A stretch of 28,361 nt of DNA from a virus (Duplodnaviria > Heunggongvirae > Uroviricota > Caudoviricetes). This document shows, piece by piece, positions 1 to 13,160 of the stretch. Position 1 is the stretch's first letter. Every line of letters begins with the position of its first letter. The DNA lies in IMG/VR virus record IMGVR_UViG_2698536339_000017; one strand, 5' to 3'. The translations under genes and the position numbers were made by a program. Under the pieces are notes generated by a model. That model was given only the letters and a program-made list of their open reading frames with translations, ran no database searches and was not told the DNA's origin.

Positions 1-12
1 GGTTTGGGAGAA
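1..12 (-). other. Inner half of a Gin/Hin-type crossover site (site A); the window starts at the site centre so the outer half is not visible
   Basis: Bases 1-12 GGTTTGGGAGAA are the exact reverse complement of the half-site TTCTCCCAAACC found at 1890-1901 and 17570-17581. They encode G-L-G-E at the start of the alternative tail-fibre cassette. Confidence 0.6.
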
Positions 13-351: not shown

Positions 352-377
352 TTTCTTTTAACTTTATGGAGTGAAAA

Positions 378-818: not shown

Positions 819-1392
819 CATTCGGCGCGGTGCTGGTATCTGTTGCCGTCACCGCGTCAATGTAATCCAGCACAGCGTTAAGCTGGGTTGTTTCTGCCTG
901 CGTCAGTTTCCGTCCGGCCTGTAATTTCAGCTGAATCAGACTGATGGAAGCCATTGCAGCATCAATCAGTGACTGGCGCTGTGCTTCTGCCGCGTCTACT
1001 GCGGCGCTATGCTGTGCCTCAGTATCGGTTACCCATTTCTCACCATCCCATTTATCGTATGGAGATAAAGGGGCGATAGTGGTTGTATTTTCAGGGTAAT
1101 CACCCGGAGCTTTGATTTCTTTTGATTCTCCTGTTTCTGTGCTAAAGACGATTTCACCACGATGGTCTGGCACATATTCCCATGAGTTAAAATCTGCAGA
1201 ACGGCAGATTGCATACCCAGTTTTGTATGAGCCAGGAGCATCTAAACAGGAACATGCCGGAATGCCGACACCCACAGCAAGATATTCAGTTGATGTGAAA
1301 ATATATTCCCGTGTTTCACCATCATAGTTATAAACCGTAATATTTCCTGCTTGGGTGGCGATAAATTCGTTATTTAATACAGCGTAATCCAT
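790..1392 (-). CDS. G: Tail fibre assembly protein (P2 G-like Tfa)
   Basis: 200 aa, C-terminus ...NVIWPELPEA. Start codon overlaps the H stop (TAATG arrangement at 1390-1394). Position matches P2 G downstream of H. Confidence 0.8.
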   Translation of the reverse strand: MDYAVLNNEFIATQAGNITVYNYDGETREYIFTSTEYLAVGVGIPACSCLDAPGSYKTGYAICRSADFNSWEYVPDHRGEIVFSTETGESKEIKAPGDYPENTTTIAPLSPYDKWDGEKWVTDTEAQHSAAVDAAEAQRQSLIDAAMASISLIQLKLQAGRKLTQAETTQLNAVLDYIDAVTATDTSTAPNVIWPELPEA

Positions 1393-2951
1393 TATGCAGC
1401 CCTCACGATATACGCAAATGCCAGGTTCCGTGGTCTGGTTTCTTTAATTAAAGAGGAGGCATCAGGTGAACTCACTGATTCAGCACCATTTCTTCCACCA
1501 GTGGTATAAGTAAAAACTCGCTCACTGTTAGACCAGTAATCCACACCAACTGTTTTTGCTGATGAAAAAATGGTTTCATCAGATATAACCTGTTCTATTC
1601 CATACGGGATATTAGTAACTGACCCCACTTTTGTAGGTATTCCATGATTATGAGAAATTACTGCATGCTCTTGATTCGTTAATAAAGTACGACCGCTATC
1701 CACTCCACGCCCGTCATCCCAGCCACGAATAAACTCACCACGTAAATCAGGCAATTTATTTGTCGGATAAGCCTTTGCCAGCTCCGGGTATTCTTCAGCA
1801 GAAAAAGCGGCACCGTTGCATTTCAGCCAGCCTGTTGGCGGAGTGGCGGAAGGCCACGGAACAGGCACGCCAACGGGTAATGCCGAACCTTCTCCCAAAC
1901 CAAGGTATGCGAGAAGACCAGCTACATCCTTTCCACTCAAATTGGTAAGCGTATTGTCCAGCGGTTGTTTACCTGCCAGCGCATTAAGCATTGTCGTGGC
2001 AAAGTTCGGATCATTCCCCAGTGCCGCCGCCAGTTCGTTCAGTGTATCCAGTGCCGCAGGTGCAGAACCCACCATTGCTGCAATCGCTGATTTCACAAAA
2101 GCTGTAGTGGCAATCTGTGTATTGTTGACCGACTGTGCCGCAGTAGGTGCTGTTGGCGTTCCGGTGAGTGCCGGACTCGACAGTGGCGCTTTCAGTGCCA
2201 GCGCATTGTTAATGGTGGTACTGAATTTCGGATCATTGTTAATGGCTACGGCTATTTCTTTCAGCGTGTCCAGCGTGGCTGGCGCACCATTAATAAGAGC
2301 CGTCAGTGCCGCCTGAACAAACGCGGTGGTCGCAATCTGCGTGGTGTTATTCCCCTCCGCTGGCGTTGGCGCTTTGGGTGTTCCGGTCAATGTCGGGCTT
2401 TCTTTGGGTGCATACTGTGAATGCGGGTCCGGTGCGGCAAGATGTTTTGCCATCTTATCATCCACGAACACCTTCAGCTCCAGTACCTTGTCATCCACAT
2501 ACTTGCGGGTTGCCAGCACGACGGCAGGGTCGATTTTCAGGGTGATATTGTCCGTGCTGCTGGTAATCAGCACCATGCGCACGGTCTGGGTGCGCCCGCT
2601 GCCTTCAGCCAGTTGCGGCTTATAGCTTTCCGGGCAGTTGCCCACGGCAATTAATGCCCCTGACTCATCAAACAGGCCCACTTCACGGATCCACCAACCA
2701 CCCTCATTTTCAGGGATCACCTGTTCAGCAATAATCTGGCTGCTGTTCTGCGGGTCGATATAGAGCATATTCAGCGCAGCCCGGCGTTTCTCATTTACCA
2801 GTGCCGTCTGCTTTGCGTCCGGCGTCGGCAATGCTCCGCCGCCATCGCCCACCGCCATATGGGTAATTTTTAGCGGCACGCCGAGCGCGGCGGCGCTGGC
2901 AAGTTTCGCCGCGCCAATATCCGTCAGCAGGGTATAAAATTTTGTGCTCAT
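1392..2951 (-). CDS. H: Tail fibre protein H (constant N-terminal part plus invertible C-terminal receptor-binding part)
   Basis: 519 aa. N-terminus MSTKFYTLLTDIGAAKLA...MAVGDGGG matches the P2 H N-terminus. C-terminal region has a tail-collar-like motif (PTGWLKCNGAAFS...LPDLRGEFIRGW). Crossover site lies at the YLGLGE junction. Confidence 0.9.
   Translation of the reverse strand: MSTKFYTLLTDIGAAKLASAAALGVPLKITHMAVGDGGGALPTPDAKQTALVNEKRRAALNMLYIDPQNSSQIIAEQVIPENEGGWWIREVGLFDESGALIAVGNCPESYKPQLAEGSGRTQTVRMVLITSSTDNITLKIDPAVVLATRKYVDDKVLELKVFVDDKMAKHLAAPDPHSQYAPKESPTLTGTPKAPTPAEGNNTTQIATTAFVQAALTALINGAPATLDTLKEIAVAINNDPKFSTTINNALALKAPLSSPALTGTPTAPTAAQSVNNTQIATTAFVKSAIAAMVGSAPAALDTLNELAAALGNDPNFATTMLNALAGKQPLDNTLTNLSGKDVAGLLAYLGLGEGSALPVGVPVPWPSATPPTGWLKCNGAAFSAEEYPELAKAYPTNKLPDLRGEFIRGWDDGRGVDSGRTLLTNQEHAVISHNHGIPTKVGSVTNIPYGIEQVISDETIFSSAKTVGVDYWSNSERVFTYTTGGRNGAESVSSPDASSLIKETRPRNLAFAYIVRAA
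1890..1915 (+). other. Gin/Hin-type crossover site inside H (site B) at the constant/variable junction
   Basis: TTCTCCCAAACC-AA-GGTATGCGAGAA. Left half is identical to the half-sites at 1-12 (inverted) and 17570-17581. Fits the TTnTCnnAAACC half-site pattern of hix/gix/cix sites as I recall them. Encodes LLAYLGLGE on the minus strand. Confidence 0.65.
1959..2399 (-). repeat. Diverged tandem duplication inside H (two units of about 72 codons)
   Basis: Protein segments about 185-258 and 259-331 repeat the pattern LTGTP.APT...NNTQIATTAFV...GAPA.LDTL.E.A.A..NDP.F.TT..NALA.K.PL. Matching DNA periodicity is visible. Confidence 0.6.
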
Positions 2952-3553
2952 GGATTCACTCTCATTGTGTCAATAACATGGACCGCCCCGCCTTCATGCG
3001 CGGTGCCGCCGGAAATAATTGTTTCGTTGATATACGGATAGATCGTGATTTCTTCGCCAAGATAACTGGCGGCTCCCACCCAATGCGGGCCGCTGGTCTG
3101 CAGATTGATGGACATGCCGATCATGTGACGGCTACATGGTTTGGCATCGCTTATCAGTCGCTCAAGTTCCAGATAGGTATCTTCAGTGATGCCCTGGTCC
3201 TGCACACCAATGTCCAGACGAAACGTGCCCGGTGTTTCTCCGGTCTGCCACCACTCAATAATGCGGATCAGGAAGCCGAACGGCTCCACCACCCGCCGTA
3301 CGGCACTGGTGGTTCCTTTGTGCTGATGAATATAAAAAGCATCCTTCACTACCTGGCGTTTGACGCTTTCTGTCCAGCCCTCGTCCCAGCGATCCACAGA
3401 GAACGCCCAGGCGAGATAAGGCAGGAAACTGACCGGACAGGTTGCTGGATTCCACAAGTCACGCAGCGGCACCTGCAGATCAGAAATCCCGCTACAGGTC
3501 TGCGCCAGTCGGCGCTCCAGTGAAGTTGAACCCGGTGGCAGCAGACTATTCAT
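2948..3553 (-). CDS. I: Baseplate assembly protein I
   Basis: 201 aa; contains RDLWNPATCP...LPYLAWAFSVDRWDEGW, similar to P2 gpI. Overlaps J stop by 8 bp. Confidence 0.85.
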   Translation of the reverse strand: MNSLLPPGSTSLERRLAQTCSGISDLQVPLRDLWNPATCPVSFLPYLAWAFSVDRWDEGWTESVKRQVVKDAFYIHQHKGTTSAVRRVVEPFGFLIRIIEWWQTGETPGTFRLDIGVQDQGITEDTYLELERLISDAKPCSRHMIGMSINLQTSGPHWVGAASYLGEEITIYPYINETIISGGTAHEGGAVHVIDTMRVNP

Positions 3554-4454
3554 CCGTTCCTCCGTTGGTCACGCTCCACTGCGTACATGATGCCGCCTGC
3601 GTTTTGTTCAGAACCACATCCGCCAGCGGAGAAGCCAGTTCCACACGTTGAACACCCTCAACATGCAGCGCGGCAAAAATAGCACTACGGCGAATATCCC
3701 GACCGAGCCGCGTCTGACTGGCGATGTACCTCTGCAGGCTGACTTTTGCCGCTGCCATTACCGGCTCTGCTTCCGGTCCCGGATAAAGAAAAATGGTGGC
3801 TTCCACACGGTACGGGATGATTTCTGCGCTGCGAACCGTCAGACGGTCAGCCACCGGGCGGACATTCTCACTGTTCAGGGCTTTCTCCACCACATCCAGC
3901 AAATCTTTTTCTGCTGTTCCGTCGCCTTCACGGCTCAGGACAGTCAGCACCACCTCTGCAGGTGCCGGACTGGTTGCACTGGCATCCGCCACCCGACCGT
4001 CGGCGCTTCGGGCATGAAATTCATAAGCGGCAGTTGGCCCCGCAACAGAAAGCCCTTCAAAGGCTGCGGGCACACGCAGGCGTAACGCTTCATCGCTTTC
4101 CATCACAGCCGCAACGGGTGGCACAGCGTCATTATCAGCAGGCGTCACCGTCAGGCGTTTCACGTTGTAGTTGGCAGCGAGCTGGTCAAGATCGCCGCCC
4201 ATCGCGTAAGCCACCATCACCGCCTGCGCGGCTTCGTTAATGCGCTGGCGCAGAAGCAACTCACGGTAAGCGTTCTCCTGCAGCAATTTGGTGACGGGTT
4301 CAGATTCCAGTTCCAGCGTGCGGATCACTGCTTCCTGCTCATCTTTCGGATGAAGCGCCACAAATTCTGCCTTGCGTTCGGCAAGCAGCGTCTCAAAGTC
4401 CGGCACATCCACAATCTGCGGCGCAGGCAACTGCGAAAGGTCAATCACTGCCAT
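3546..4454 (-). CDS. J: Baseplate assembly protein J
   Basis: Similar to P2 gpJ. Start chosen at the internal Met (MAVIDLSQLPAP...) matching the P2 J N-terminus, rather than the longest ORF start at 4493. Confidence 0.8.
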   Translation of the reverse strand: MAVIDLSQLPAPQIVDVPDFETLLAERKAEFVALHPKDEQEAVIRTLELESEPVTKLLQENAYRELLLRQRINEAAQAVMVAYAMGGDLDQLAANYNVKRLTVTPADNDAVPPVAAVMESDEALRLRVPAAFEGLSVAGPTAAYEFHARSADGRVADASATSPAPAEVVLTVLSREGDGTAEKDLLDVVEKALNSENVRPVADRLTVRSAEIIPYRVEATIFLYPGPEAEPVMAAAKVSLQRYIASQTRLGRDIRRSAIFAALHVEGVQRVELASPLADVVLNKTQAASCTQWSVTNGGTDE

Positions 4455-4800
4455 TCTCTGCTCCTGTTGATACGGAAAGGGACACAGGCACACCGTTATT
4501 CCGCCGCCCGGTCAGCTCCACCACCATAGAACCGTCAAAGTTGCTGTTGATGGTGATGGAATCCAGCGTCAGCCGTGGCTCCCAGCGACTCAGCGCCACA
4601 TACACTGCCGACATGACCTGCAGGCGCAATGCCGGATTTTGTGGCTGGTCTATCAGCGCCGACAGCAGGGAACCATATTCCCGACGGGCAATGCGGCTAC
4701 CCTGTGGCGTCAGCAAAATGTCCCGCACCGACTGGCGCAGATGGTCCGTGTCTGTAATAGCTTTTCCGTTGCTCTGACTCATGCCGATATACAGCGTCAT
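4441..4800 (-). CDS. W: Baseplate protein W (gp25-like)
   Basis: 119 aa, MTLYIGMSQSNGKAITDTDHLRQSV..., similar to P2 gpW. Overlaps V stop. Confidence 0.85.
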   Translation of the reverse strand: MTLYIGMSQSNGKAITDTDHLRQSVRDILLTPQGSRIARREYGSLLSALIDQPQNPALRLQVMSAVYVALSRWEPRLTLDSITINSNFDGSMVVELTGRRNNGVPVSLSVSTGAENGSD

Positions 4801-5375
4801 ACCGGGCCTCCGGTTGTATCGCCGCCTTTCAGGACGCCAGTATGCTGATGCGCATCAACCACGATCCCGTTAGAACTCATCGCTCCGCCGCCCTGGGTAA
4901 CGCCACCATTGATCACCACTTCGCTGTTAATGCGCGTGCGGTCAGCCTCCAGTACAAACTCACTGGTTTTCATGGTGATGTTGTCAGCGGCCTCAATGAC
5001 CATTGATTTGATGCCCCTGACATACCAGCGCCCGGTGGCGGGTTCGTATTCAAACCAGCCACCGTCAGGATGTTCTGTCACGCAGGCGTCCGCCGACGTC
5101 GACGGTGGCGCGAACTGATTCGAATAGATGGCGGGTAACGCAAAGGCGGTTTCCAGATTGCCGCCCAGACTCAGCAGCACCACCTGCTCACCTTCCGATG
5201 GTCGCCACCATGTGCGGGCATTCCCGGCACGCAGCGTCAGCCAGCTGATCCAGTTGGTTTCAAGCTCGCCCGTTTTCACCCGGCAAAGCCAGTTTTCCCT
5301 GTCCACTTCGGTGACTACCCCTGTGCGGATCAGGTTGGTGATAAGGCGCATGATTTCGGTTAATTGTGCGTTCAT
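4797..5375 (-). CDS. V: Baseplate spike protein V
   Basis: 192 aa with MNAQLTEIMRL...WLTLRAGNARTWWRPSEGEQ, similar to P2 gpV. Confidence 0.85.
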   Translation of the reverse strand: MNAQLTEIMRLITNLIRTGVVTEVDRENWLCRVKTGELETNWISWLTLRAGNARTWWRPSEGEQVVLLSLGGNLETAFALPAIYSNQFAPPSTSADACVTEHPDGGWFEYEPATGRWYVRGIKSMVIEAADNITMKTSEFVLEADRTRINSEVVINGGVTQGGGAMSSNGIVVDAHQHTGVLKGGDTTGGPV

Positions 5376-5421
5376 AGGGAAAGGTTGCCATCAGGGGAAG
5401 AAAGGCGGCAGTGCTGCAACT

Positions 5422-5439
5422 TGTATCAGTGCTGATACA
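5422..5439 (-). promoter_or_regulatory. Palindromic TGT-N12-ACA element upstream of V (candidate Ogr-type late promoter box)
   Basis: TGTATCAGTGCTGATACA in the 68-bp S-V intergenic region fits the TGT-N12-ACA pattern of P2 late promoters. It lies only about 47 bp from the V start codon, so spacing is atypical. Confidence 0.3.
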
Positions 5440-5443
5440 AAGA

Positions 5444-5890
5444 TCACCCCGCCAGCCATTGCAGAATCATGTCGCGGGTCATTGCCTCAACATCATCATT
5501 TACACCCAGCAGGCGGCGCTCTGCGTAACGGACCTCCGGTCCTTTGCGACTGACGCGATCACGCAGGCCGTAATGGTGAACACGGGCAATACGCTGCACC
5601 TTGCCTTCAAACTGTACACTGGCAGAGTCGGCGCTGGCGGCAGTTTTCAGGTATTTTGTGGTGCGCAGCTTTGCAAACATCTGACGTTTGATGCGCCCTT
5701 TCTTGCTGCGTGCTGTTACCCTGCGCGGTTCATAACTGCTGCCATCTGGATTGCGCTGCATCCTGATATTCTGCTGCTGTGTCCGGCGCAGTTCCTGCGC
5801 CAGCTGGCGCATCATGCGGCTTCTCGTGGCTGGTTCCAGATTCGCCAGCAAGGCACTCAGCCAGTCGTCCACCTTCTGCAGTTCAGCCAC
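5444..5890 (-). CDS. S: Tail completion protein S
   Basis: 148 aa, similar to P2 gpS (virion morphogenesis). Position between R and V. Confidence 0.8.
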   Translation of the reverse strand: MAELQKVDDWLSALLANLEPATRSRMMRQLAQELRRTQQQNIRMQRNPDGSSYEPRRVTARSKKGRIKRQMFAKLRTTKYLKTAASADSASVQFEGKVQRIARVHHYGLRDRVSRKGPEVRYAERRLLGVNDDVEAMTRDMILQWLAG

Positions 5891-6335
5891 GTTTCACCGT
5901 CCACATTTCTTCAGGTTCATCGGGTTCTGCTACAGCTTCAACGCTCGACACACTGCCGTCAGTGCTGACCAGCACACGTTCCGTCAGTTGCAGATTAAGG
6001 CTGATATCACAGACATCGTTGCGCAAAATATCCACCTCAAAGGTGAATAGCTTTTCCCGTAACGCCGGGTTATTGATGGCATCGGGCTGGTTATCCCGAA
6101 GCCACAGTAAAACCGGGGCCATCAGCAGATTCTGGTCGCCGCTGAAATCCTCTATCACCACGTTCAGGGTATAGCGGTACTCCCATGACATGGAGCTGGC
6201 CCCCGTGGCAACCAGCGAACCGTTATCCACAAACAGATGCAGTTTGTCCGGGTTATTGCGGACATAAGGCACCGCTTTATTGAGGGCGTGGCGCAGGGAT
6301 TGTGGTTTGTTCACTGTTTCGCTCCTGACACGCAA
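5883..6335 (-). CDS. R: Tail completion protein R
   Basis: 150 aa with ...HLFVDNGS...EYRYTLNVVIEDFSGD...LLWLRDNQPD, similar to P2 gpR. Confidence 0.8.
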   Translation of the reverse strand: MRVRSETVNKPQSLRHALNKAVPYVRNNPDKLHLFVDNGSLVATGASSMSWEYRYTLNVVIEDFSGDQNLLMAPVLLWLRDNQPDAINNPALREKLFTFEVDILRNDVCDISLNLQLTERVLVSTDGSVSSVEAVAEPDEPEEMWTVKRG

Positions 6336-6567
6336 TAATCATGTCCACTTTGTCTGCACAGACCGCCCAGGCGGCCTCCGTTTCATCCAGCAACGCATTC
6401 AGATCACCGTTAGTGCGCGGTGCTGCCTGCTCCAGCCGACACGGCGTCACTCGCGGACAACCACTGACGGTAAGCTGCACCTCCGGTGAGTGCCGGACGT
6501 TCCCGCAGCCGGATAATGTCAGCAGGCAAAGGAGTATCAGCCCAGTGGCGTAAATCCTCGTTCTCAC
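6277..6567 (-). CDS. lysC: Rz1-like outer-membrane lipoprotein spanin (LysC-like), starting inside lysB in another frame and extending into R
   Basis: N-terminal signal peptide with lipobox (LLCLLTLSGC). Embedded/overlapping arrangement as described for P2 lysC. Confidence 0.55.
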   Translation of the reverse strand: MRTRIYATGLILLCLLTLSGCGNVRHSPEVQLTVSGCPRVTPCRLEQAAPRTNGDLNALLDETEAAWAVCADKVDMIIACQERNSEQTTIPAPRPQ

Positions 6568-6838
6568 GTTTCAGTTCCTCGATCCGGCGTTGTCGTTGTC
6601 TCAGCTGTGCGCTGGTCTGTTCTGCTTCGGCATAGAGCCGCGCCTGCTCCCGGTTATTGGTTTCAGTCAGAATGGACAGGCTGATAAGCTGGCTGTTGCT
6701 CTTTGCCAGTGCCTGGCTTTTGCTCTGCAGCTCGTTTGCCTGCGTGCTGATGGTCTGGCTGGCATCAGCCAGCCGCCACGTCTGCCAGCCCAGCGCCGCC
6801 AGTAATAACGCCAGCACAACCAGCAGCAACCGGTTCAT
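6410..6838 (-). CDS. lysB: Rz-like inner-membrane spanin (LysB)
   Basis: 142 aa with N-terminal TM helix then a coiled-coil-like region (QANELQSKSQALAKSNSQL...RQRQRRIEELKRENEDLRHW). Confidence 0.7.
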   Translation of the reverse strand: MNRLLLVVLALLLAALGWQTWRLADASQTISTQANELQSKSQALAKSNSQLISLSILTETNNREQARLYAEAEQTSAQLRQRQRRIEELKRENEDLRHWADTPLPADIIRLRERPALTGGAAYRQWLSASDAVSAGAGSTAH

Positions 6839-7212
6839 GCGGCTACCTGTTGCGCCATCTGATTACGGGTGATCCAGAAGGCAATAACGGTCAGTAGATA
6901 AAAGACCAGGGTAATAGCCCACCCCGTCCATGCGAGACTTACAACAATCAGCAATCGCATCACCCAACTGATAAATACGTTTTCTTTTCGGGTAATTGTC
7001 TTCAGCAAAGATGCCCTTAACTCCTGCCAGAGCGGGCCATTCTGAATTAACGCAGCCAGTGCTACCGGAATTACCGCCCATGTCAGCAAACAGGCTACCC
7101 AAACGCCGGACGCTGCCAGTACCGGAAAGATCCCCTGCGGATACACCATTGCTGCGATTAACAGCGCCATCCATAACATCAGAAACAGTCCGCTGATTAA
7201 TTTCTTTTTCAT
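6835..7212 (-). CDS. lysA: LysA-like membrane protein (lysis timing)
   Basis: Multi-TM hydrophobic protein. Start set at the MKKKLISG Met, which follows the endolysin stop; the longest ORF starts at 7284. Confidence 0.55.
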   Translation of the reverse strand: MKKKLISGLFLMLWMALLIAAMVYPQGIFPVLAASGVWVACLLTWAVIPVALAALIQNGPLWQELRASLLKTITRKENVFISWVMRLLIVVSLAWTGWAITLVFYLLTVIAFWITRNQMAQQVAA

Positions 7213-7213
7213 T

Positions 7214-7726
7214 TCAGTTTGCTCCCTGTAAACACCAGGCCATCTCCCGCGCACGGCGGTTATCCAGCCCCTGATTAAACACACCTTTCACATAAACCCA
7301 GCGCGGCAACTGTCGGCACGCATCCGCCCAGCGCCGCTGATTGAGTAATTTCACCAGCGTGGAACTGCAGGCATTGCCCGTCCCCACGTTGAAGGCAAAC
7401 GACACCGTAGCGTCATACACCTTCTGCGGCGGCTGTTGCTTCACACACCTTTCCAGCGCCCGCTCCACACGTAGCACGTTGGAGATCAGCCCTTCTGCTG
7501 CCTGTCGTTCCGTAATAGTTTTGCCGGGAATGACGCCCGACGTATTACCAATGCCGTCGGTCCAGACACCCGCGCTGCACTGATACGGCTGCAGACGACA
7601 GCCTTCGTAATCGGCAATCAGTTTCAGCCCCTCCACGGAGGTGTGAAGTTGCTGAAACCCCGGCAGCGTGGCAGCAATAGCCAGCACGGCCCCGACAAGG
7701 CAGCGTTTAACGATTGATGGATTCAT
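7214..7726 (-). CDS. Endolysin, T4-lysozyme-like with an N-terminal signal-anchor-release (SAR) type segment
   Basis: 170 aa. N-terminal weakly hydrophobic Gly/Ala-rich segment (VKRCLVGAVLAIAATLPG) followed by ...LIADYEGCRLQPY...GVWTDGIGNT..., resembling the phage 21 R-type SAR endolysin. Confidence 0.75.
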   Translation of the reverse strand: MNPSIVKRCLVGAVLAIAATLPGFQQLHTSVEGLKLIADYEGCRLQPYQCSAGVWTDGIGNTSGVIPGKTITERQAAEGLISNVLRVERALERCVKQQPPQKVYDATVSFAFNVGTGNACSSTLVKLLNQRRWADACRQLPRWVYVKGVFNQGLDNRRAREMAWCLQGAN

Positions 7727-7922
7727 AGTCCTCCCGCGAGATCTGCCCGTCGCGCAGAAGCTGGTAGGCTTTGTGTTTGTAGTACCAGTTGATAGCCAGC
7801 ATCAGCACACCAATCATCAGGCCACCCAGCGTTGAGGCATCCTTGATGGACAAATCGCCCAGCCAGGCCAGCACAACGGCGATGCAATACGTGATAAAGG
7901 CGCTGATTCGCTCAAGCGTCAT
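7707..7922 (-). CDS. Small two-TM holin (pinholin-like)
   Basis: 71 aa with two hydrophobic segments and a charged C-terminus. Sits immediately upstream of the SAR-type endolysin. Confidence 0.6.
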   Translation of the reverse strand: MTLERISAFITYCIAVVLAWLGDLSIKDASTLGGLMIGVLMLAINWYYKHKAYQLLRDGQISREDYESINR

Positions 7923-7925
7923 AAT

Positions 7926-8129
7926 TCAGTCCCATAGCTGGACGGTCTGCACGGTGGTGGTGGTCGGAATGTCCGGCAGCTCCACCTGCAGCCCGTGAGG
8001 TAAAAAAGGGCCAAATTCGGCAAGCCCCGGATTTGCCTTCAGTACCTGCTCCGTGACACCCTGCGTGCGCCCGTAATGACGCCAGCAAAGCGCGTCCACC
8101 GTGTCATACTGATGCGCACGCACTTTCAT
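7926..8129 (-). CDS. X: Tail protein X
   Basis: 67 aa, MKVRAHQYDTVDALCWRHYGRTQGVTEQVLKANPGLAEFGPFLPHG..., similar to P2 gpX. Confidence 0.85.
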   Translation of the reverse strand: MKVRAHQYDTVDALCWRHYGRTQGVTEQVLKANPGLAEFGPFLPHGLQVELPDIPTTTTVQTVQLWD

Positions 8130-8593
8130 CAGATAAGCTCCACTGTGCAGTGCGGCGCATCCTGTACCCGGCAGATGGCCCAGCGGGCGTCACGCCACAA
8201 ATCACCGCTGGCTTCTGCCAGTTCCTCGCCCCGCTTCACACCGGATGCCGTGGCGTCATAGTCCTGGTAACGTTCGTTGAGCATGGCGCGAGCCCAGCAG
8301 TAAACCGCGTTGAAATAGTGCTGAATTCGCTCGCTTTTCCCGTCCAGCTGTTCCGCCGGAACCTCTGCCAGCGAGGCATATCCCAGCATCTGCTGGCGTC
8401 TGCGAAACTCATACAGCTCTGCGTTGACCTCCGAAATTGCCGACAGCGCAACCTGCTTTAAACGCGGCTGCGTCACCGTGCCGTCAGTGCGCATCACACT
8501 GCGAAACTCCGACAGGTCCACATCAGGCCAGAACGGCGTATTTCTGATGATTTCCGCCTGTTCCGGTGCCTGTTCTGGCGCAACAAACTTCAT
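8129..8593 (-). CDS. L: Head completion/stabilisation protein L
   Basis: Similar to P2 gpL. Start set at MKFVAPEQ (8593), which has an AGGAG-type RBS upstream; the longest ORF extends to 8656. Confidence 0.75.
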   Translation of the reverse strand: MKFVAPEQAPEQAEIIRNTPFWPDVDLSEFRSVMRTDGTVTQPRLKQVALSAISEVNAELYEFRRRQQMLGYASLAEVPAEQLDGKSERIQHYFNAVYCWARAMLNERYQDYDATASGVKRGEELAEASGDLWRDARWAICRVQDAPHCTVELI

Positions 8594-8688
8594 GCTGCTT
8601 TCTCCTGAAATAGAGGGCGGTGGACGGGGTTTTGATGTGGCAGTGCCTTTCGCCACCCCGTGCCGCCCGTGCGCGGGGGCACGTTCTG

Positions 8689-9339
8689 TCAGCGGCTGTC
8701 ATTGCGCAGTCTGCGCTCCAGCTGCTGTTTGTCTTTTTTCACGCCACAGCGGGGATCGAGCTGCAACGCATGGTTGAGATGATTAAGGGCGGAAGCCGGA
8801 TTGCTTTCACTCAGGACAGCGCCAATCGCTTTATGCAGACGCGCCCGTGACTGGTCCGGCATATCCAGACCGTCTGTCAGCTCCAGCGTCTGCAACAACA
8901 GATCGGCATCAAAGCCGGTGGCGGCAAGCATTGCGCTCTGCGCGGCGTCTGACATTTCCTCTGCCAGCACGGTCTGCACATTGCGGTTACCCAGTGGCAT
9001 CACCCAGCCATGACGTAGGGCATGACGCCCGATCTCCAGCGCCCCGGCATAATCTCCGGCATCAATGCGCCACAGCATCACGTACATCAGCACGTCATCC
9101 TGTTGAGTGCCTCCGGCAGCCAGGACACCCTCTGCCCAGGCAGCGTATTTCGGCAGCAGCTCCACCTTGATTTCCGCTTTTTTGACCGTGGACTGAACGC
9201 CCTTGAGACGGCGGCGGTCTTCCGCCAGTTGCAGCAGCATCAGGTCATAGCCCGACGCGTGGCGAACACTGCCGCCCTCGCGGGCGGCCTGTTCAGCCTG
9301 AACGCGCAGGCGATGCTGCCGTGCGGGACTCAGGCTCAT
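8689..9339 (-). CDS. M: Terminase endonuclease (small) subunit M
   Basis: 216 aa with ...DDVLMYVMLWRIDAGDYAGALEIGRHALRHGWVMP..., similar to P2 gpM. Confidence 0.85.
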   Translation of the reverse strand: MSLSPARQHRLRVQAEQAAREGGSVRHASGYDLMLLQLAEDRRRLKGVQSTVKKAEIKVELLPKYAAWAEGVLAAGGTQQDDVLMYVMLWRIDAGDYAGALEIGRHALRHGWVMPLGNRNVQTVLAEEMSDAAQSAMLAATGFDADLLLQTLELTDGLDMPDQSRARLHKAIGAVLSESNPASALNHLNHALQLDPRCGVKKDKQQLERRLRNDSR

Positions 9340-9342
9340 GAA

Positions 9343-10401
9343 TTACGCTCCGGTTTCTGCTGCGGCGGCGCTGAAGTCGCCAATCTGGATGTTTTCCACC
9401 AGTGCGGCACAGCGGTAGTCCTCAACCACATAGGCTTCGTTAACGGATTCAAAGTTTTCAATCCGGTCACGTTTCGGGTTGTCGATAACTGAACGGCGGC
9501 GGGTGTCTTCCTGCCAGTAGATGGACAGGTTATCCAGACGGGTAATCAGCAGTGCATTCGGCGGGAAGAACGGCGCACGCACGGCCTGCAGGCCCCCCAT
9601 GCGTTTCTGGCTGATGATCATATCGGCAGCCAGTTTTTCACTGTTTTCCTGCTCTTTGTTGACCAGCGGGAAATACTTGTCAGACAGCAGTTCACGACCG
9701 CAAATCACCACCAGATCGTCATCGTCCTGGTAGACCACGTCGATAAGCTCATTGACGGCATCCATCACCACGGCGTCCAGGTTGGCATATTCGCCACCTT
9801 TCCCGACTTTCACTGCGCCCGGTGTGGTTTCACCGCCCGTGGTGGTGCTGCCCATGACGTGATCCGGTGCATCCTCACGGATTTTCTGCAGCCAGCCTTT
9901 ATTCACATCCTGCAGTAGCGGGTTTTCGCTACGGTTGGAGGTTTTCGCACGCTTCACGCCGTTAAAGCCGATCATGATGCGGTCCAGTGCCTGACGTTTC
10001 ACGATGGCGTCACGGATACGCACCTGAAAATCCTGAAACTTCGCCCACAGGTCCAGCTTCGCGTAGGTCAGCACCGTGTCAAAGTTGGTCTGCTCGCATT
10101 TATATTCCACATCGACCATCAGCGTCGGATCGACAGGTTCACGCTCTTTCGCGGTGGTATCAGTGGTTCCGGCAATGGTGCTGCCAACTCCCAACCCCAG
10201 CAGCTGACCGGACTGCTCAGTCACTGGCGTGACGTTAATCAGCGTCAGGAAAGCGGCGGACTGCTGGATCTGGTCTTCCAATGTCTGCTGCACGGACGGC
10301 TCTACGGTGAACTTGCTGGACAGTTCTTCAACTGCCACACCGTTCAGACGCGCCAGCTGCTGCAGGTAAGCGTTAAAAGCCAAGCGGGTATTCTTCTTCA
10401 T
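9343..10401 (-). CDS. N: Major capsid protein N
   Basis: 352 aa, similar to P2 gpN across its length. Confidence 0.9.
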   Translation of the reverse strand: MKKNTRLAFNAYLQQLARLNGVAVEELSSKFTVEPSVQQTLEDQIQQSAAFLTLINVTPVTEQSGQLLGLGVGSTIAGTTDTTAKEREPVDPTLMVDVEYKCEQTNFDTVLTYAKLDLWAKFQDFQVRIRDAIVKRQALDRIMIGFNGVKRAKTSNRSENPLLQDVNKGWLQKIREDAPDHVMGSTTTGGETTPGAVKVGKGGEYANLDAVVMDAVNELIDVVYQDDDDLVVICGRELLSDKYFPLVNKEQENSEKLAADMIISQKRMGGLQAVRAPFFPPNALLITRLDNLSIYWQEDTRRRSVIDNPKRDRIENFESVNEAYVVEDYRCAALVENIQIGDFSAAAAETGA

Positions 10402-10417
10402 CGGGTTTTGTGCTCCA

Positions 10418-11251
10418 TCAGCAATTGGTCAGAGTGTCAGCGGGGGCGTTACCGCCTGTTGCACGCTGGCGGTAGTCCTGGCGGCTGTCTTCATGACTCA
10501 GCTTATTCACCAGTTCGTTAAAGGCGGTCTGCTGTGCCTGCAGGGCAGTCTCCAGCTCAGACAGACGTTCTTCCTGCTCAGACAGGGATTTTTCGGTCCG
10601 TGCGCTCAGGTTCTGCTGCTCAGTGGCGACCAGCTCCACGGCCTTATGCACATCAGAGAACCGGGCATCGTCGGACTGCTCTTTTTTGGTGAACAGCGCC
10701 GTGACGCGGGCAAACAGGGACGGCTTGTCCTCCTGGATTTCTTCCAGTTCGATCACCGTTTCCTCTGCGGCGGTAAAGAGATTGGCGGGATTCTGCTTGC
10801 GGTTTGCCAGCGGGTTATGGGCTGCACTGGCGCTGAATGTCAGCATTTCAGTGCCCAGACTGGCAGGGTCATCAGTGGCAGCCAGCCCGACCAGGTAGGC
10901 TTTGCCCGTATCAGCAAACTTTGGGCTGACTTCCATAGAGGTGAATAATTTCTGGCCTTTTTTCACCAGATCCACCAGGGACTCTGTTGGCTCAACGTCG
11001 GCATACAGCGCCATCTTGCCTGCCAGCGGACCTTCCGTGATTTCTTCAGCAAACAGCGCCGTCACCTTGCCGTAGCGGTTAAAGGTGCTGTCCGGCAGAT
11101 AAGACTTGATGTGCTCAAGGTTAATCAGCGCGGTATACACCGCCGGGTTGTAGCTGGCTGCCATCTGTTCCAGCCATTCACGCTGGATTTCGCGTCCGTC
11201 GGTGGTGGCACCTTCCACCCCGATGCGAAAACGCTTTGCTTTCACTGTCAT
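10418..11251 (-). CDS. O: Capsid scaffolding protein O
   Basis: 277 aa; position and composition (acidic coiled-coil C-terminal part) match P2 gpO. Confidence 0.8.
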   Translation of the reverse strand: MTVKAKRFRIGVEGATTDGREIQREWLEQMAASYNPAVYTALINLEHIKSYLPDSTFNRYGKVTALFAEEITEGPLAGKMALYADVEPTESLVDLVKKGQKLFTSMEVSPKFADTGKAYLVGLAATDDPASLGTEMLTFSASAAHNPLANRKQNPANLFTAAEETVIELEEIQEDKPSLFARVTALFTKKEQSDDARFSDVHKAVELVATEQQNLSARTEKSLSEQEERLSELETALQAQQTAFNELVNKLSHEDSRQDYRQRATGGNAPADTLTNC

Positions 11252-11329
11252 GAGCCGTGCTCCGTTAGAAAAAACTTACTGGAGCCTTATGGTTGCGGTG
11301 ATGGGGGCAGTGAAACAATGCGCGGTATT

Positions 11330-11347
11330 TGTACCGACAACCACACA
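11330..11347. promoter_or_regulatory. TGT-N12-ACA Ogr-type late promoter box in the divergent P/O intergenic region
   Basis: TGTACCGACAACCACACA. Centre is about 87 bp from the O start codon, compatible with a -55 activator site plus about 30-nt leader for the O operon. No second clean box for P was found. Confidence 0.45.
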
Positions 11348-11393
11348 AACCGCAGGCGGGGAAAGCCTTCATTCAAGGCTGTAGGTTTGTGCC

Positions 11394-13160
11394 ATGAACA
11401 CCACACTGACACCCGCAGATCTCGATCCCCGTCGGCAGGCCATGCTGCTGTACTTTCAGGGATACCGCGTAGCCCGCATTGCTGAAATGCTGGGCGAGAA
11501 AGTTGCAACCGTTCACAGCTGGAAAAAACGCGACAAGTGGGGTGACTATGGGCCGCTGGATCAGATGCAGCTCACCACCGCCGCACGTTACTGCCAGCTC
11601 ATTATGAAGGAGCACAAAGAAGGGAAAGATTTCAAAGAAATTGATCTGCTGGCGCGCCAGTCGGAGCGCCACGCGCGGATCGGCAAGTTTAACAATGGCG
11701 GCAACGAAGCCGATTTAAACCCTAACGTCGCCAACCGCAACAAAGGCCCGCGCCGTCAGCCTGAAAAGAATGTTTTCACCGATGAACAGATTGAGAAGCT
11801 GGAAGAAATCTTCCATTCCTCCATGTTCAACTACCAGCGTCACTGGTGGGAAGCCGGAAAAACCAACCGCATCCGCAACCTGCTGAAGTCACGCCAGATC
11901 GGCGCGACCTTCTATTTTGCCCGTGAAGCCCTGATTGACGCCCTGCTAACCGGACGTAACCAGATTTTCCTTTCTGCCAGTAAGGCACAGGCGCACGTCT
12001 TTAAGCAGTACATCATCGACTTCGCCAAAGAAGTGGAAGTGGAGCTGAAAGGCGATCCGATGGTGCTTCCCAACGGGGCCACACTGTATTTCCTCGGCAC
12101 CAATGCCCGCACTGCCCAGAGTTACCACGGCAACCTGTATCTGGATGAATATTTCTGGATACCGAAATTCCAGGAGCTGCGCAAAGTGGCTTCCGGTATG
12201 GCTATTCACAAAAAATGGCGACAAACCTATTTTTCCACGCCATCCAGCCTGACCCACAGTGCTTATCCGTTCTGGTCCGGTGCGCTGTTCAACCGTGGAC
12301 GCAACAAAGCCGACAAGGTGGACATCGACCTGTCCCACAGCAATCTGGCCCCCGGCCTGCTGTGCGCAGACGGGCAATACCGCCAGATAGTCACCGTAGA
12401 AGATGCGGTGCGCGGCGGCTGTAACCTGTTCGACCTTGACCAGTTGCGCATGGAATACAGCCCGGACGAATACCAGAACCTGCTGATGTGTGAGTTCGTG
12501 GACGATCTCGCGTCCGTGTTCCCGCTCAGCGAGCTGCAGGCGTGCATGGTGGACAGTTGGGAAGTCTGGACCGACTTTCATGCACTGGCCCTGCGCCCGT
12601 TTGGCTGGCGCGAAGTGTGGATCGGTTATGACCCGGCAAAAGGTACGCAGAACGGCGACAGCGCCGGATGCGTGGTGGTGGCACCGCCAGCCGTGCCGGG
12701 CGGTAAGTTCCGCATTCTTGAGCGTCACCAGTGGCGCGGGATGGACTTCCGCGCCCAGGCTGATGCAATCAAAAAACTGACCGAGCAGTACAACGTGACC
12801 TACATCGGCATCGACTCGACAGGTGTCGGCCACGGGGTTTACGAGAACGTGAAAGCGTTTTTTCCAGCCGTCCGGGAGTTTGTCTACAACCCCAACGTTA
12901 AAAACGCCCTGGTACTCAAGGCCTACGACATTATCAGTCACCGTCGTCTGGAGTTTGACGCCGGACACACCGACATAGCGCAGTCATTTATGGCAATCCG
13001 TCGCGCCACCACCGCCAGCGGCAACCGCCCAACCTATGAAGCCAGCCGCAGCGAAGAAGCCAGCCATGCCGATCTGGCCTGGGCAACAATGCACGCACTG
13101 TTTAACGAACCGCTGCAGGGCGAGTCCGCCAATACCAGCAATATTGTGGAGATTTTTTGA
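11394..13160 (+). CDS. P: Terminase ATPase (large) subunit P
   Basis: 588 aa, similar to P2 gpP. Divergent from O as in P2. Confidence 0.9.
   Translation: MNTTLTPADLDPRRQAMLLYFQGYRVARIAEMLGEKVATVHSWKKRDKWGDYGPLDQMQLTTAARYCQLIMKEHKEGKDFKEIDLLARQSERHARIGKFNNGGNEADLNPNVANRNKGPRRQPEKNVFTDEQIEKLEEIFHSSMFNYQRHWWEAGKTNRIRNLLKSRQIGATFYFAREALIDALLTGRNQIFLSASKAQAHVFKQYIIDFAKEVEVELKGDPMVLPNGATLYFLGTNARTAQSYHGNLYLDEYFWIPKFQELRKVASGMAIHKKWRQTYFSTPSSLTHSAYPFWSGALFNRGRNKADKVDIDLSHSNLAPGLLCADGQYRQIVTVEDAVRGGCNLFDLDQLRMEYSPDEYQNLLMCEFVDDLASVFPLSELQACMVDSWEVWTDFHALALRPFGWREVWIGYDPAKGTQNGDSAGCVVVAPPAVPGGKFRILERHQWRGMDFRAQADAIKKLTEQYNVTYIGIDSTGVGHGVYENVKAFFPAVREFVYNPNVKNALVLKAYDIISHRRLEFDAGHTDIAQSFMAIRRATTASGNRPTYEASRSEEASHADLAWATMHALFNEPLQGESANTSNIVEIF

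What the first reader, a model, noticed from the sequence alone, without database searches (positions are those of the whole stretch)
6277..7922. Lysis cassette appears to be pinholin plus SAR-type endolysin rather than the canonical P2 holin/endolysin, with an embedded spanin pair
A 71-aa two-TM holin precedes an endolysin whose N-terminus is a weakly hydrophobic Gly/Ala-rich segment, and the catalytic region resembles phage 21 R-type lysozymes. Downstream are LysA-like and Rz-like genes, with a lipoprotein ORF starting inside lysB in another frame and running 59 bp into R. This points to modular replacement of lysis genes within a P2 backbone.
Basis: partly seen in the sequence, partly recalled or inferred. 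Interest (0 to 1): 0.4.

Follow-up and report, generated by a model that had tools for sequence, protein, structure and literature searches.

The report
P2-like prophage lysis cassette, known type
This is the ordinary lysis gene set of a common P2-like E. coli/Klebsiella prophage: a small two-helix holin, a membrane-tethered (SAR) lysozyme of the phage P1 type, and the standard P2 LysA/LysB/LysC genes, an arrangement already annotated and described in near-identical phages.

Summary

- **Replaced genes.** Only the holin and endolysin are unrelated to P2 Y and K.
- **Retained genes.** lysA, lysB and lysC are P2 orthologues. lysC starting inside lysB and ending inside R is the canonical P2 "overlapped" spanin layout, not an "embedded" pair and not a replacement.
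- **Endolysin.** It is a GH24 lysozyme closest to P1 Lyz, not to phage 21 R. It has the E41/C50/T56 triad, a caging Cys43 and a Cys9 in the N-terminal weakly hydrophobic segment. All seven cysteines match P1 Lyz and HP1 Lys. A disulfide-caged SAR endolysin is the best reading.
- **Holin.** It belongs to the HP1 holin family, whose prototype behaves as a pinholin in experiments. Its first helix is strongly hydrophobic and there is no dual start, so "pinholin" is plausible but unproven.
- **Prior knowledge.** The cassette is 96-98% identical in many Klebsiella/Escherichia P2-like phages. NCBI's pipeline names the parts, and the near-identical KP12 cassette was described in 2023.

Low interest; already known.

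The parts
7707..7922 (-). Class II (two-TMD) holin of the HP1 holin family, 71 aa; probable pinholin
   Evidence: PF16080 at 36.7 bits (cut-off 28.8); PF04971 (phage 21 S) at 23.2 bits, below its cut-off of 26. PHROG 20 at E=1.9e-26, the same PHROG that phage 21 S matches at 1.1e-32. Hydrophobic segments at residues 6-22 and 30-47. hhalign of the family against S21 gives probability 59%, E=9e-5. NCBI names the homologues 'HP1 family phage holin'.
7214..7726 (-). GH24 endolysin of P1 Lyz type with an N-terminal SAR-like segment, 170 aa; overlaps the holin gene by 20 nt
   Evidence: PF00959 at E=4.4e-40. Best solved structures are P1 Lyz 1XJT (2e-26) and 1XJU (5e-25); R21 3HDE scores 1e-17. 37% identity to P1 Lyz and 34% to HP1 Lys. 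Seven Cys at positions equivalent to P1 Lyz and HP1 Lys.
7655..7702 (-). Codons 9-24 of the endolysin: an uncharged, weakly hydrophobic segment (CLVGAVLAIAATLPGF) preceded by K7-R8; putative SAR domain containing Cys9
   Evidence: Best 15-mer has Kyte-Doolittle 2.08, summed biological-scale dG +1.5, and 47% G/A/S/T. This is comparable to or weaker than the SAR domains of P1 Lyz and R21. Of 22 homologues (below 80% identity) with an N-terminal hydrophobic segment and the E-C-C-T motif, 20 keep a Cys in that segment.
7559..7606 (-). Codons 41-56 of the endolysin: catalytic motif E41-G-C43-x6-C50-x5-T56
   Evidence: Aligns residue for residue with P1 Lyz E42/C44/C51/T57 and HP1 Lys E47/C49/C56/T62. 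R21 has D at the C50 position and V at the C43 position.
6835..7212 (-). lysA homologue, 125 aa, four TMDs; putative antiholin or lysis-timing protein
   Evidence: PHROG 162 at E=1e-43, the same PHROG as P2 LysA at 1.8e-67. NF038378 at 122.9 bits. Four hydrophobic segments as in P2 LysA. AGGGAG Shine-Dalgarno before the ATG at 7212. Same position as in P2.
6410..6838 (-). lysB, i-spanin (Rz equivalent), 142 aa, N-terminal TMD
   Evidence: TIGR03495 phage_LysB at 174 bits (cut-off 92.75). PHROG 89 at 5.6e-46. 33% identical to P2 LysB. TMD at residues 4-20.
6277..6567 (-). lysC, o-spanin (Rz1 equivalent), 96 aa precursor, GTG start, +1 frame inside lysB, ends inside R (overlapped architecture)
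   Evidence: NF038368 P2_Rz1 at 124.2 bits (cut-off 27). PF23793 at 57.3 bits. 41% identical to P2 LysC, same length, and five mature-protein Cys in each at corresponding positions. GAGGA Shine-Dalgarno; overlaps are 158 nt with lysB and 38 nt with R.
6505..6516 (-). Lipobox L18-S-G-C21 of LysC
   Evidence: Read directly from the translation; P2 LysC has C-A-G-C21 at the same place.
7926..8129 (-). Tail gene X (upstream boundary of the cassette)
   Evidence: PF05489 at E=4.9e-34; 61% identical to P2 X.
5883..6314 (-). Tail completion gene R (downstream boundary; its first 38 nt are shared with lysC)
   Evidence: PF06891 at E=4.2e-47; 54% identical to P2 R. The GTG at 6314 has an AGGAG Shine-Dalgarno and is the start annotated in relatives.

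Best explanation
This is the late-operon lysis module of an intact-looking P2-like (Peduoviridae, Wadgaonvirus-like) prophage of E. coli. It combines a class II HP1-family holin and a P1 Lyz-type SAR endolysin with the P2-type LysA/LysB/LysC genes.

Inferred mechanism:
1. The endolysin is exported by Sec and stays tethered to the inner membrane by its uncleaved, weakly hydrophobic N-terminal segment. It is held enzymatically inactive because the catalytic Cys50 is disulfide-bonded to Cys43.
2. The two-TMD holin accumulates in the inner membrane. At a programmed time it depolarises the membrane, most likely through small holes as shown for the family prototype HP1 Hol.
3. Depolarisation releases the SAR segment. 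The thiol of Cys9 attacks the Cys43-Cys50 bond, freeing Cys50 and activating the muramidase.
4. LysA, with four TMDs, modulates timing as in P2.
5. The LysB (inner-membrane) and LysC (outer-membrane lipoprotein) spanin complex then disrupts the outer membrane.

Shown here: gene presence, family membership, motif and cysteine conservation, gene layout, and non-orthology to P2 Y and K. Inferred by homology to P1 Lyz, HP1 Hol/Lys, and P2 LysA/B/C: export, tethering, disulfide isomerisation, hole size and timing.
For: - **Family matches.** All five genes have family hits above curated cut-offs.
- **Endolysin relatives.** The closest solved structure is P1 Lyz. The triad E41/C50/T56 and caging C43 are identical in register to P1 Lyz.
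- **Cysteine pattern.** The window protein, P1 Lyz and HP1 Lys each have seven Cys at equivalent positions, including one in the N-terminal segment. R21 lacks these.
- **Conservation of the N-terminal Cys.** It is kept in 20 of 22 diverse homologues that have an N-terminal hydrophobic segment plus E-C-C-T. The two exceptions look N-terminally truncated.
- **SAR-like composition.** The N-terminal segment is as weakly hydrophobic as known SAR domains.
- **Holin relatives.** The holin passes the HP1 holin model and shares PHROG 20 with the phage 21 pinholin.
- **Experimental precedent.** HP1 Hol and Lys, from a P2-like phage, behave as a pinholin and a SAR endolysin (PMC7312051).
- **Spanin layout.** The lysB/lysC/R layout is identical to P2.
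[quoted passage not shown] Its AlphaFold model gave TM-align 0.83 to 1XJT, and the purified protein cleared K. pneumoniae lawns (PMC9902359).
- **Intactness.** All ORFs are intact, and the prophage segments are 99.99-100% identical to the one in E. coli AMSHJX01.
Against: - **No experiment.** Nothing has been tested on this protein set.
- **Signal peptide not excluded.** The N-terminal segment contains A-x-A-like motifs (A16-I-A18, I17-A-A19) after a short h-region, so a cleavable signal peptide cannot be ruled out from sequence.
- **Caging pair not SAR-specific.** The C43/C50 pair also occurs in 28 homologues without any N-terminal hydrophobic segment.
- **TMD1 unlike S21.** The holin TMD1 is strongly hydrophobic (Kyte-Doolittle 2.18), against below 1.0 for S21 and 1.61 for HP1 Hol.
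- **Weak similarity to pinholins.** There is no dual-start antiholin and no BLASTP similarity to S21 or HP1 Hol. hhalign probability is only 59%.
- **SAR does not imply pinholin.** SAR endolysins can work with large-hole holins; P1 Lyz works with LydA (PMC9025707 abstract).
- **No usable model.** My AlphaFold run on a shallow alignment failed (pLDDT 59).
Confidence: 0.75

Rival explanations
1. The holin is an ordinary large-hole class II holin with a stable N-in/C-in topology, not a pinholin. It would still trigger the SAR endolysin by collapsing the membrane potential.
For: TMD1 is strongly hydrophobic (Kyte-Doolittle 2.18, summed dG -0.8). It lacks the Gly/Ser/Ala-rich stretch that lets S21 TMD1 leave the membrane. 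The phage 21 S Pfam model scores below its cut-off. There is no dual start. P1 pairs a SAR endolysin with the holin LydA (PMC9025707 abstract). Kim et al. obtained only pLDDT 50.8 for a heptamer model of the identical KP12.peg.320.
Against: It belongs to the HP1 holin family and shares PHROG 20 with S21. HP1 Hol kills without releasing beta-galactosidase. In the phage collection, every listed homologue of this holin whose record is annotated sits next to a lysozyme/endolysin gene or beside tail gene X.
Confidence: 0.35
2. The endolysin N-terminus is a cleavable Sec signal peptide, making it a secreted endolysin like Oenococcus fOg44 Lys44 rather than an uncleaved SAR anchor.
For: The h-region is short, about 8-10 residues after K7-R8, and is followed by small residues at positions -3/-1 (A16-I-A18, I17-A-A19) and a Pro/Gly turn. 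Prediction tools also call a signal peptide for the homologous HP1 Lys.
Against: The same prediction is made for SAR endolysins whose behaviour is supported experimentally, so it does not discriminate. A Cys in this segment is conserved in 20 of 22 diverse relatives and in P1 Lyz and HP1 Lys. Such conservation is unexpected for a discarded leader, and P1 Lyz needs that Cys for activation (PMC3556154; the mechanism of Xu et al. 2005 is from my own knowledge).
Confidence: 0.1
3. The endolysin is regulated like phage 21 R, by refolding of the released SAR helix into the catalytic cleft without disulfide chemistry.
For: Both are GH24 SAR-type lysozymes. R21 structures are significant hits at 1e-17 with 37% identity over the catalytic domain.
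Against: The catalytic position holds Cys rather than Asp. The caging Cys and the SAR Cys are present and conserved, and the full seven-Cys pattern matches P1 Lyz and HP1 Lys, not R21. P1 Lyz is the better hit by nine orders of magnitude.
Confidence: 0.1

Closest known systems
Lysis cassette of Klebsiella phage KP12 (peg.316-320), Escherichia phage 500465-1 (gp20-24) and the E. coli AMSHJX01 prophage
   Same: The cassette region (window 5800-8200) is 97.6-97.9% identical at DNA level in KP12 and 500465-1. The prophage segments are 99.99-100% identical in AMSHJX01. Gene order and overlaps are the same. [quoted passage not shown]
   Different: Essentially nothing in the cassette differs. Public annotations differ in quality: lysA is labelled 'endolysin' or 'membrane protein', and lysC is given truncated starts.
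Haemophilus phage HP1 hol/lys (P2-like; experimentally a pinholin plus a SAR endolysin, PMC7312051)
   Same: The holin belongs to the same Pfam family (PF16080) and also has no dual start. The endolysin has the same seven-Cys, E-C-C-T, N-terminal-Cys design and is 34% identical. The holin and endolysin genes overlap in both, and both sit in a P2-like late operon.
   Different: The holins show no BLASTP-level similarity. HP1 Hol TMD1 is less hydrophobic (Kyte-Doolittle 1.61 against 2.18). HP1 has no lysA or lysC homologue annotated, and its cassette sits after the tail tube gene rather than after X.
Phage P1 Lyz (PDB 1XJT/1XJU), the disulfide-caged SAR endolysin
   Same: It is the best structural relative (E=2e-26, 37% identity). 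The triad E/C/T, the caging Cys and the SAR Cys all match, and the seven cysteines are equivalent.
   Different: The window SAR segment is shorter, at about 16 uncharged residues, and its Cys lies at the cytoplasmic edge (position 9) rather than mid-helix. The window protein lacks the 11-residue insertion of P1 and HP1 after the NVG motif. P1 uses the holin LydA and antiholin LydB rather than an HP1-family holin.
Phage 21 S21 pinholin and R21 SAR endolysin
   Same: It follows the same two-component logic of a small two-TMD holin followed by a GH24 SAR lysozyme. The holin shares PHROG 20 with S21.
   Different: S21 has a weakly hydrophobic SAR-like TMD1 and a dual start. R21 has a catalytic Asp and no regulatory cysteines. 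PF04971 scores below its cut-off and BLASTP finds nothing.
Canonical phage P2 lysis module Y-K-lysA-lysB-lysC
   Same: The location between X and R is the same. lysA, lysB and lysC are homologous (PHROG 162; 33% identity for LysB; 41% for LysC). lysC is in the +1 frame, overlapped, with the same 38-nt run into R.
   Different: Y (three TMDs, PHROG 175) and K (soluble, PHROG 90) are replaced by unrelated genes. Among phage records both holin types are common, with 129 records for the Y type and 83 for this type.

Membership tests
SAR endolysin, P1 Lyz (disulfide-caged) type | GH24 / T4-lysozyme-like catalytic domain | tested here: met
   PF00959 at 137 bits; 1XJT at E=2e-26.
SAR endolysin, P1 Lyz (disulfide-caged) type | Catalytic triad Glu-x8-Cys-x5-Thr with Cys at the middle position | tested here: met
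   E41, C50 and T56 align with P1 Lyz E42/C51/T57. The motif definition is from PMC3556154.
SAR endolysin, P1 Lyz (disulfide-caged) type | Caging Cys two residues after the Glu, plus a Cys inside the N-terminal SAR segment | tested here: met
   C43 and C9 are present. The pattern is shared with P1 Lyz (C44, C13) and HP1 Lys (C49, C11). The N-terminal Cys is kept in 20 of 22 diverse TM-bearing E-C-C-T homologues.
SAR endolysin, P1 Lyz (disulfide-caged) type | N-terminal, weakly hydrophobic, Gly/Ala/Ser/Thr-rich TMD following basic residues | tested here: met
   K7-R8 is followed by 16 uncharged residues, 44-47% G/A/S/T, with summed dG +1.5. P1 Lyz gives -1.0 and R21 gives +0.35. Composition only; TMHMM was not available.
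SAR endolysin, P1 Lyz (disulfide-caged) type | Segment not cleaved by leader peptidase; released from the membrane on depolarisation | not testable with these tools
   This needs fractionation and N-terminal analysis. Sequence-based predictors do not discriminate.
Phage 21 R-type SAR endolysin | Catalytic Asp at the middle triad position; no regulatory cysteines; activation by refolding | tested here: not met
   The window has Cys50 where R21 has Asp, and carries C9 and C43, which are absent in R21. The PDB score is weaker, at 1e-17.
HP1 holin family (PF16080; TCDB 1.E.7 as cited in PMC7312051) | Match to the family model above the curated cut-off | tested here: met
   36.7 bits against a cut-off of 28.8. 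Homologues are named 'HP1 family phage holin' by NCBI.
Pinholin (prototype S21 68) | Small protein with two TMDs encoded next to a SAR endolysin | tested here: met
   71 aa with two hydrophobic segments, overlapping the SAR-type endolysin gene by 20 nt.
Pinholin (prototype S21 68) | Sequence membership of the phage 21 S family | tested here: inconclusive
   PF04971 at 23.2 bits, below its cut-off of 26. BLASTP finds no alignment. hhalign probability is 59%, E=9e-5. Both fall in PHROG 20.
Pinholin (prototype S21 68) | TMD1 is itself a weakly hydrophobic SAR domain able to leave the bilayer | tested here: not met
   The best 15-mer of the window TMD1 has Kyte-Doolittle 2.18 and summed dG -0.8. 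S21 TMD1 never reaches 1.0, and HP1 Hol reaches 1.61. Composition-based only.
Pinholin (prototype S21 68) | Dual-start motif giving an antiholin isoform | tested here: not met
   There is a single start, and the ORF has no upstream in-frame start. HP1 Hol also lacks one.
Pinholin (prototype S21 68) | Forms nanometre-scale holes that depolarise but do not pass proteins | not testable with these tools
   This needs a beta-galactosidase or GFP release assay. It has been shown only for HP1 Hol and S21.
P2 LysA | Homology to P2 LysA, four TMDs, and a position between the endolysin gene and lysB | tested here: met
   Both are in PHROG 162, at 1e-43 and 1.8e-67. Four hydrophobic segments each. Same position. 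Pairwise BLASTP is only marginal at E=0.019.
Two-component spanin, overlapped architecture (P2 LysB/LysC) | i-spanin with an N-terminal TMD; o-spanin with a lipobox; o-spanin gene starting inside the i-spanin gene and extending beyond it | tested here: met
   TIGR03495 at 174 bits and NF038368 at 124 bits. TMD at residues 4-20. L-S-G-C21 lipobox, +1 frame, 158-nt overlap, ending 133 nt past the lysB stop. Architecture definitions from PMC6139136.
Canonical P2 holin Y / endolysin K | Sequence homology to Y (three TMDs) and K (soluble) | tested here: not met
   BLASTP gives E=0.002 and E=0.1 in a nine-sequence database. The PHROGs differ and the TMD counts differ.

The most novel reading that the evidence does not exclude
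LysA is retained next to two unrelated holin/endolysin pairs: Y/K in P2, and the HP1-type holin with a SAR lysozyme here. It is also the fastest-diverging gene of the cassette, at about 50% nucleotide identity where its neighbours are 70-85%. It may therefore not be a Y-specific antiholin. It could be a holin-independent membrane regulator, for example of SAR-endolysin release or of membrane energisation, loosely analogous to the Mu 'releasin' idea. Nothing here tests this.
Probability: 0.08. Interest if true: 0.45.

Novelty: already known. Interest (0 to 1): 0.1.

Why it matters
It matters little beyond correct annotation.

- **Evolutionary point.** Within P2-like phages the holin-endolysin pair is exchangeable, while LysA and the overlapped LysB/LysC spanins stay with the backbone. 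That mosaicism is already documented for other P2-like phages (PMC3091744; HP1, PMC7312051).
- **Practical point.** The endolysin of this very common E. coli/Klebsiella prophage family should be treated as a P1 Lyz-type, disulfide-regulated, membrane-tethered enzyme when it is cloned. N-terminal truncation or Cys changes will alter its activity.
- **Annotation point.** Public records often mislabel lysA as an endolysin and truncate lysC.

Tried and rejected
- **AlphaFold on the endolysin.** The 15-sequence alignment was shallow (79% identity or more) and gave mean pLDDT 59, with residues 1-74 below 50. I did not use the model or run a fold search on it. I relied on the sequence match to 1XJT and on the published KP12 model instead.
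- **BLASTP of the holin.** No alignment was found against S21 or against HP1 Hol.
- **Recent swap within close relatives.** I asked whether the holin/endolysin pair looks recently exchanged. Against Kapieceevirus ST11-OXA48phi15.3, identity decays gradually from 95-100% in the head genes to 80-85% in X, holin and endolysin. It drops to about 50% in lysA and recovers to 70-85% in lysB-S, with the same gene types throughout. There is no recent Y/K-type replacement among close relatives.
- **Endolysin-LysA fusions.** I considered that the many 277-296-aa fusion proteins in the database reflect programmed frameshifting. I rejected this because the junctions differ between entries and nearly all are singletons, whereas intact clusters hold hundreds to thousands of members.
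- **The 16.5-kb inversion.** I looked for the window's inversion junction in complete E. coli genomes and found none. The apparent hit in strain APEC20/16 has a different gene order. I also tested whether the truncated IS3 carries a pseudo-gix site at the breakpoint; it does not.


Full report
**Observation**

The flagged span holds five overlapping or abutting minus-strand genes between tail gene X (7926-8129) and tail completion gene R (5883-6314).

- A 71-aa holin at 7707-7922.
- A 170-aa endolysin at 7214-7726, sharing 20 nt with the holin gene.
- A 125-aa four-TMD protein at 6835-7212. Its ATG lies one base after the endolysin stop and has an AGGGAG Shine-Dalgarno sequence.
- lysB at 6410-6838.
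- lysC at 6277-6567, with a GTG start and a GAGGA Shine-Dalgarno sequence.

Every gene has a family hit well above chance.

| Gene | Family hits |
|---|---|
| Holin | PF16080 (HP1 holin) 36.7 bits vs cut-off 28.8 |
| Endolysin | PF00959, E=4e-40 |
| lysA homologue | NF038378, 123 bits; PHROG 162, 1e-43 |
| lysB | TIGR03495 LysB, 174 bits vs 92.75 |
| lysC | NF038368 LysC, 124 bits vs 27; PF23793 |

The flanking genes are clear P2 orthologues: X 61%, R 54%, S 39% and L 41% identical. One correction applies. The 59-nt overlap of lysC with R holds only for the longest R ORF. With the Shine-Dalgarno-supported GTG at 6314, which relatives annotate, the overlap is 38 nt.

**Which genes are P2-like and which are not**

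I compared the window proteins with P2 itself (NC_001895).

- LysC is 41% identical to P2 LysC and the same length (96 aa). The lipobox Cys is at position 21 in both, and each mature protein has five Cys at corresponding positions.
- LysB is 33% identical.
- The four-TMD protein is barely detectable by BLASTP but falls in the same PHROG (162) as P2 LysA and has the same four-TMD plan.
- P2 lysC (8202-8492) starts in the +1 frame inside lysB and runs 38 nt into R (start 8455). The window does exactly the same.

In spanin nomenclature this is the "overlapped" architecture, with P2 as its type example. "Embedded" refers to lambda Rz/Rz1 (PMC6139136; PMC3091744). This part of the finding is therefore canonical P2, not a replacement.

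The holin and endolysin, by contrast, have no significant similarity to P2 Y and K. They sit in PHROG 20 and 7, against 175 and 90 for Y and K. The topology differs as well. P2 Y has three hydrophobic segments where this holin has two. P2 K has no N-terminal hydrophobic segment where this endolysin has one. Non-orthologous replacement of just the Y-K pair is supported.

**The endolysin**

The best solved relatives are P1 Lyz (1XJT at 2e-26, 1XJU at 5e-25). Phage 21 R (3HDE/3HDF) scores 1e-17. Identity is 37% to P1 Lyz and 34% to HP1 Lys.

The motif E41-G-C43-x6-C50-x5-T56 is in exact register with P1 Lyz E42/C44/C51/T57. In P1 Lyz the catalytic Cys is held in a disulfide until activation (PMC3556154). 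The isomerisation by the SAR-domain Cys13 (Xu et al. 2005) is from my own knowledge.

The window protein has Cys9 at the start of its only hydrophobic stretch, K7-R8-CLVGAVLAIAATLPGF. A four-way alignment shows that the window protein, P1 Lyz and HP1 Lys each have seven cysteines at equivalent positions (9/13/11, 43/44/49, 50/51/56 and four more). R21 lacks the first two and has Asp at the third.

I also examined 113 representatives below 80% identity from a 1.8-billion-protein library.

- 22 have an N-terminal hydrophobic segment plus the E-C-C-T motif.
- 20 of those 22 keep a Cys in that segment, typically just after the basic residues. The two exceptions look N-terminally truncated.
- As a caveat, 28 homologues without any N-terminal segment also carry the C43/C50 pair. 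That pair alone is not diagnostic.

The segment is as weakly hydrophobic as known SAR domains. Its best 15-mer has a summed biological-scale dG of +1.5, against -1.0 for P1 Lyz and +0.35 for R21, and it is 47% G/A/S/T.

The protein is therefore best filed as a P1 Lyz-type, disulfide-caged SAR endolysin. It is not phage 21 R-type. A cleavable signal peptide cannot be excluded by sequence, because A-x-A-like motifs are present.

**The holin**

- It has two hydrophobic segments and a basic C-terminus.
- It passes the HP1 holin model but scores below the cut-off for the phage 21 S model (23.2 bits against 26).
- It shares PHROG 20 with S21, whose remembered sequence I verified as 100% identical to phage 21.
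- A profile of 15 family members aligns to S21 across both TMDs with hhalign probability 59% and E=9e-5. The alignment shows that the window family lacks the Gly/Ser/Ala-rich insert of S21 TMD1.
- TMD1 here is strongly hydrophobic (Kyte-Doolittle 2.18). S21 stays below 1.0 and HP1 Hol reaches 1.61.
- There is no dual start.

The family prototype, HP1 Hol, comes from a P2-like phage. It kills without releasing beta-galactosidase and is required for lysis with the HP1 SAR endolysin (PMC7312051). "Pinholin" is the best guess by family membership at about 0.6. One defining feature of the S21 prototype was tested here and not met, and hole size cannot be computed.

**How common and how known**

The 2.4-kb region is 96-98% identical in Escherichia phage 500465-1 (Wadgaonvirus), Klebsiella phages KP12 and 4LV2017, and the Kp48xx series. 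It is 80-90% identical in Salmonella RE2010/SEN8 and other P2-like phages.

The holin family occurs in 83 phage records, nearly all P2-like. The P2 Y type occurs in 129. Intact endolysin clusters hold hundreds to thousands of member sequences from Escherichia, Klebsiella, Salmonella and Citrobacter.

NCBI's pipeline names the five genes in the 99.99-100% identical E. coli AMSHJX01 prophage as follows:
- HP1 family phage holin
- lysozyme
- DNZ54_00345 family protein
- LysB
- LysC

Kim et al. [quoted passage not shown] They reported pLDDT 93.9 and TM-align 0.83 to 1XJT. They also reported lytic spots on a K. pneumoniae lawn from the purified protein. Exchange of holin, endolysin and antiholin genes among P2-like phages with retention of LysB/LysC was noted in 2010.

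Against a related Klebsiella phage, identity decays smoothly across the cassette, with lysA the most divergent gene at about 50%. This is ordinary mosaicism, not a recent event.

**Mechanism (inferred)**

1. The endolysin is exported by Sec and tethered inactive in the membrane, with Cys43 bonded to Cys50.
2. The holin triggers and depolarises the membrane.
3. The SAR segment is released, and Cys9 resolves the caging disulfide.
4. Murein is degraded.
5. LysA tunes the timing.
6. LysB-LysC disrupt the outer membrane.

Only gene content, motifs and homology are shown here. Every dynamic step rests on P1 Lyz, HP1 and P2 precedents.

**Verdict**

It is wrong or imprecise on three details, namely R21-type versus P1-type, embedded versus overlapped, and the spanins and LysA being canonical P2 genes. 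The feature is already known and annotated, and interest is low.

**Side observations**

- The window equals the AMSHJX01 prophage, except that 1-16526 is inverted relative to 17569-28361. A 1,042-bp 5'-truncated IS3 (16527-17568) sits at the junction. The 13-bp half of a Hin/Gin-type crossover site appears in inverted copies at 1-13 and 17569-17581. No complete E. coli genome in the collection shares this junction.
- A ShosTA defence pair sits in the low-GC island after portal gene Q.

Noticed in passing
window 1-16526 versus 17569-28361; junction 16527-17568: Relative to the otherwise 99.99-100% identical prophage in E. coli AMSHJX01, the 16.5-kb block carrying G-H-...-lysis-...-O, P, Q and the accessory island is inverted. 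The junction holds a 1,042-bp IS3 copy with a genuine terminal repeat at 16527, truncated internally at 17568 with about 216 bp missing. No complete E. coli genome in the collection has this junction. It could be a real rearrangement or an assembly artefact.
   Followed up: partly
window 1-13 and 17569-17594; invertase gene 17645-18217 (+): The window begins exactly at a half-site of a Hin/Gin/Cin-type crossover site (TTCTCCCAAACC AA CGTTTATGAAAA, upstream of the serine invertase). The 13-bp half-site is present as inverted copies at both ends of the inverted block. The IS3 sequence at the breakpoint has no resemblance to such a site.
   Followed up: partly
window 4-351 (+), 378-818 (+), 790-1392 (-), 1392-2951 (-): This is an invertible tail-fibre cassette. 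It holds an alternative fibre tip (Gp53-like_C) and a second tail-fibre assembly gene facing the H/G genes, as in Mu, P1 and e14. Its similarity to tail-fibre genes of lambdoid phages (HK97, SfIV) is a sign of host-range module exchange.
   Followed up: no
window 14210-15749 (-), GC 41-45%: The low-GC accessory island after portal gene Q encodes a ShosTA anti-phage toxin-antitoxin pair. ShosA is DprA-like (PDLC03961 at 2.8e-70; PF02481 at 1.4e-60) and ShosT scores 3.7e-14. It sits at a P2-type variable hotspot, and relatives carry other cargo there, such as SEFIR, AIPR, Abi and TIR proteins.
   Followed up: partly
window 7214-7284 (endolysin 3' end and the upstream extension of the lysA ORF): About 45 of the 120 best database hits to the endolysin are 277-296-aa endolysin-LysA fusions. 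They arise from single-base deletions near the endolysin 3' end that shift reading into the lysA frame. The junctions differ (for example after R159 or after A163) and almost all are singletons, several from complete genomes. They are most likely sequencing or assembly indels or sporadic pseudogenes, not programmed frameshifting.
   Followed up: partly
L001 1978-2094, L002 1978-2151, L004 2362-2508, L006 22278-22526 (lysC); L001 2536-2913 and L003 2010-2435 (lysA): There are annotation errors in public relatives. lysC is given starts that remove the signal peptide and lipobox (117, 174, 147 and 249 nt instead of 291 nt; the 249-nt call starts at a CTG). lysA is labelled 'endolysin' in RefSeq phage records, including P2 itself, and in PHROG 162.
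   Followed up: yes
window 6850-7200 versus L004: lysA is by far the most divergent gene of the cassette between this prophage and Kapieceevirus ST11-OXA48phi15.3, at about 45-58% nucleotide identity. The neighbouring holin and endolysin are 73-86% identical and lysB/lysC are 68-86%.
   Followed up: no
window 25742-28361: The host flank is ybjL (aspartate:alanine antiporter), ybjM and grxA, and is 100% identical to E. coli AMSHJX01. The prophage right end (D, ogr) abuts ybjL. This places the source in E. coli, although most phage-database relatives are labelled Klebsiella.
   Followed up: yes
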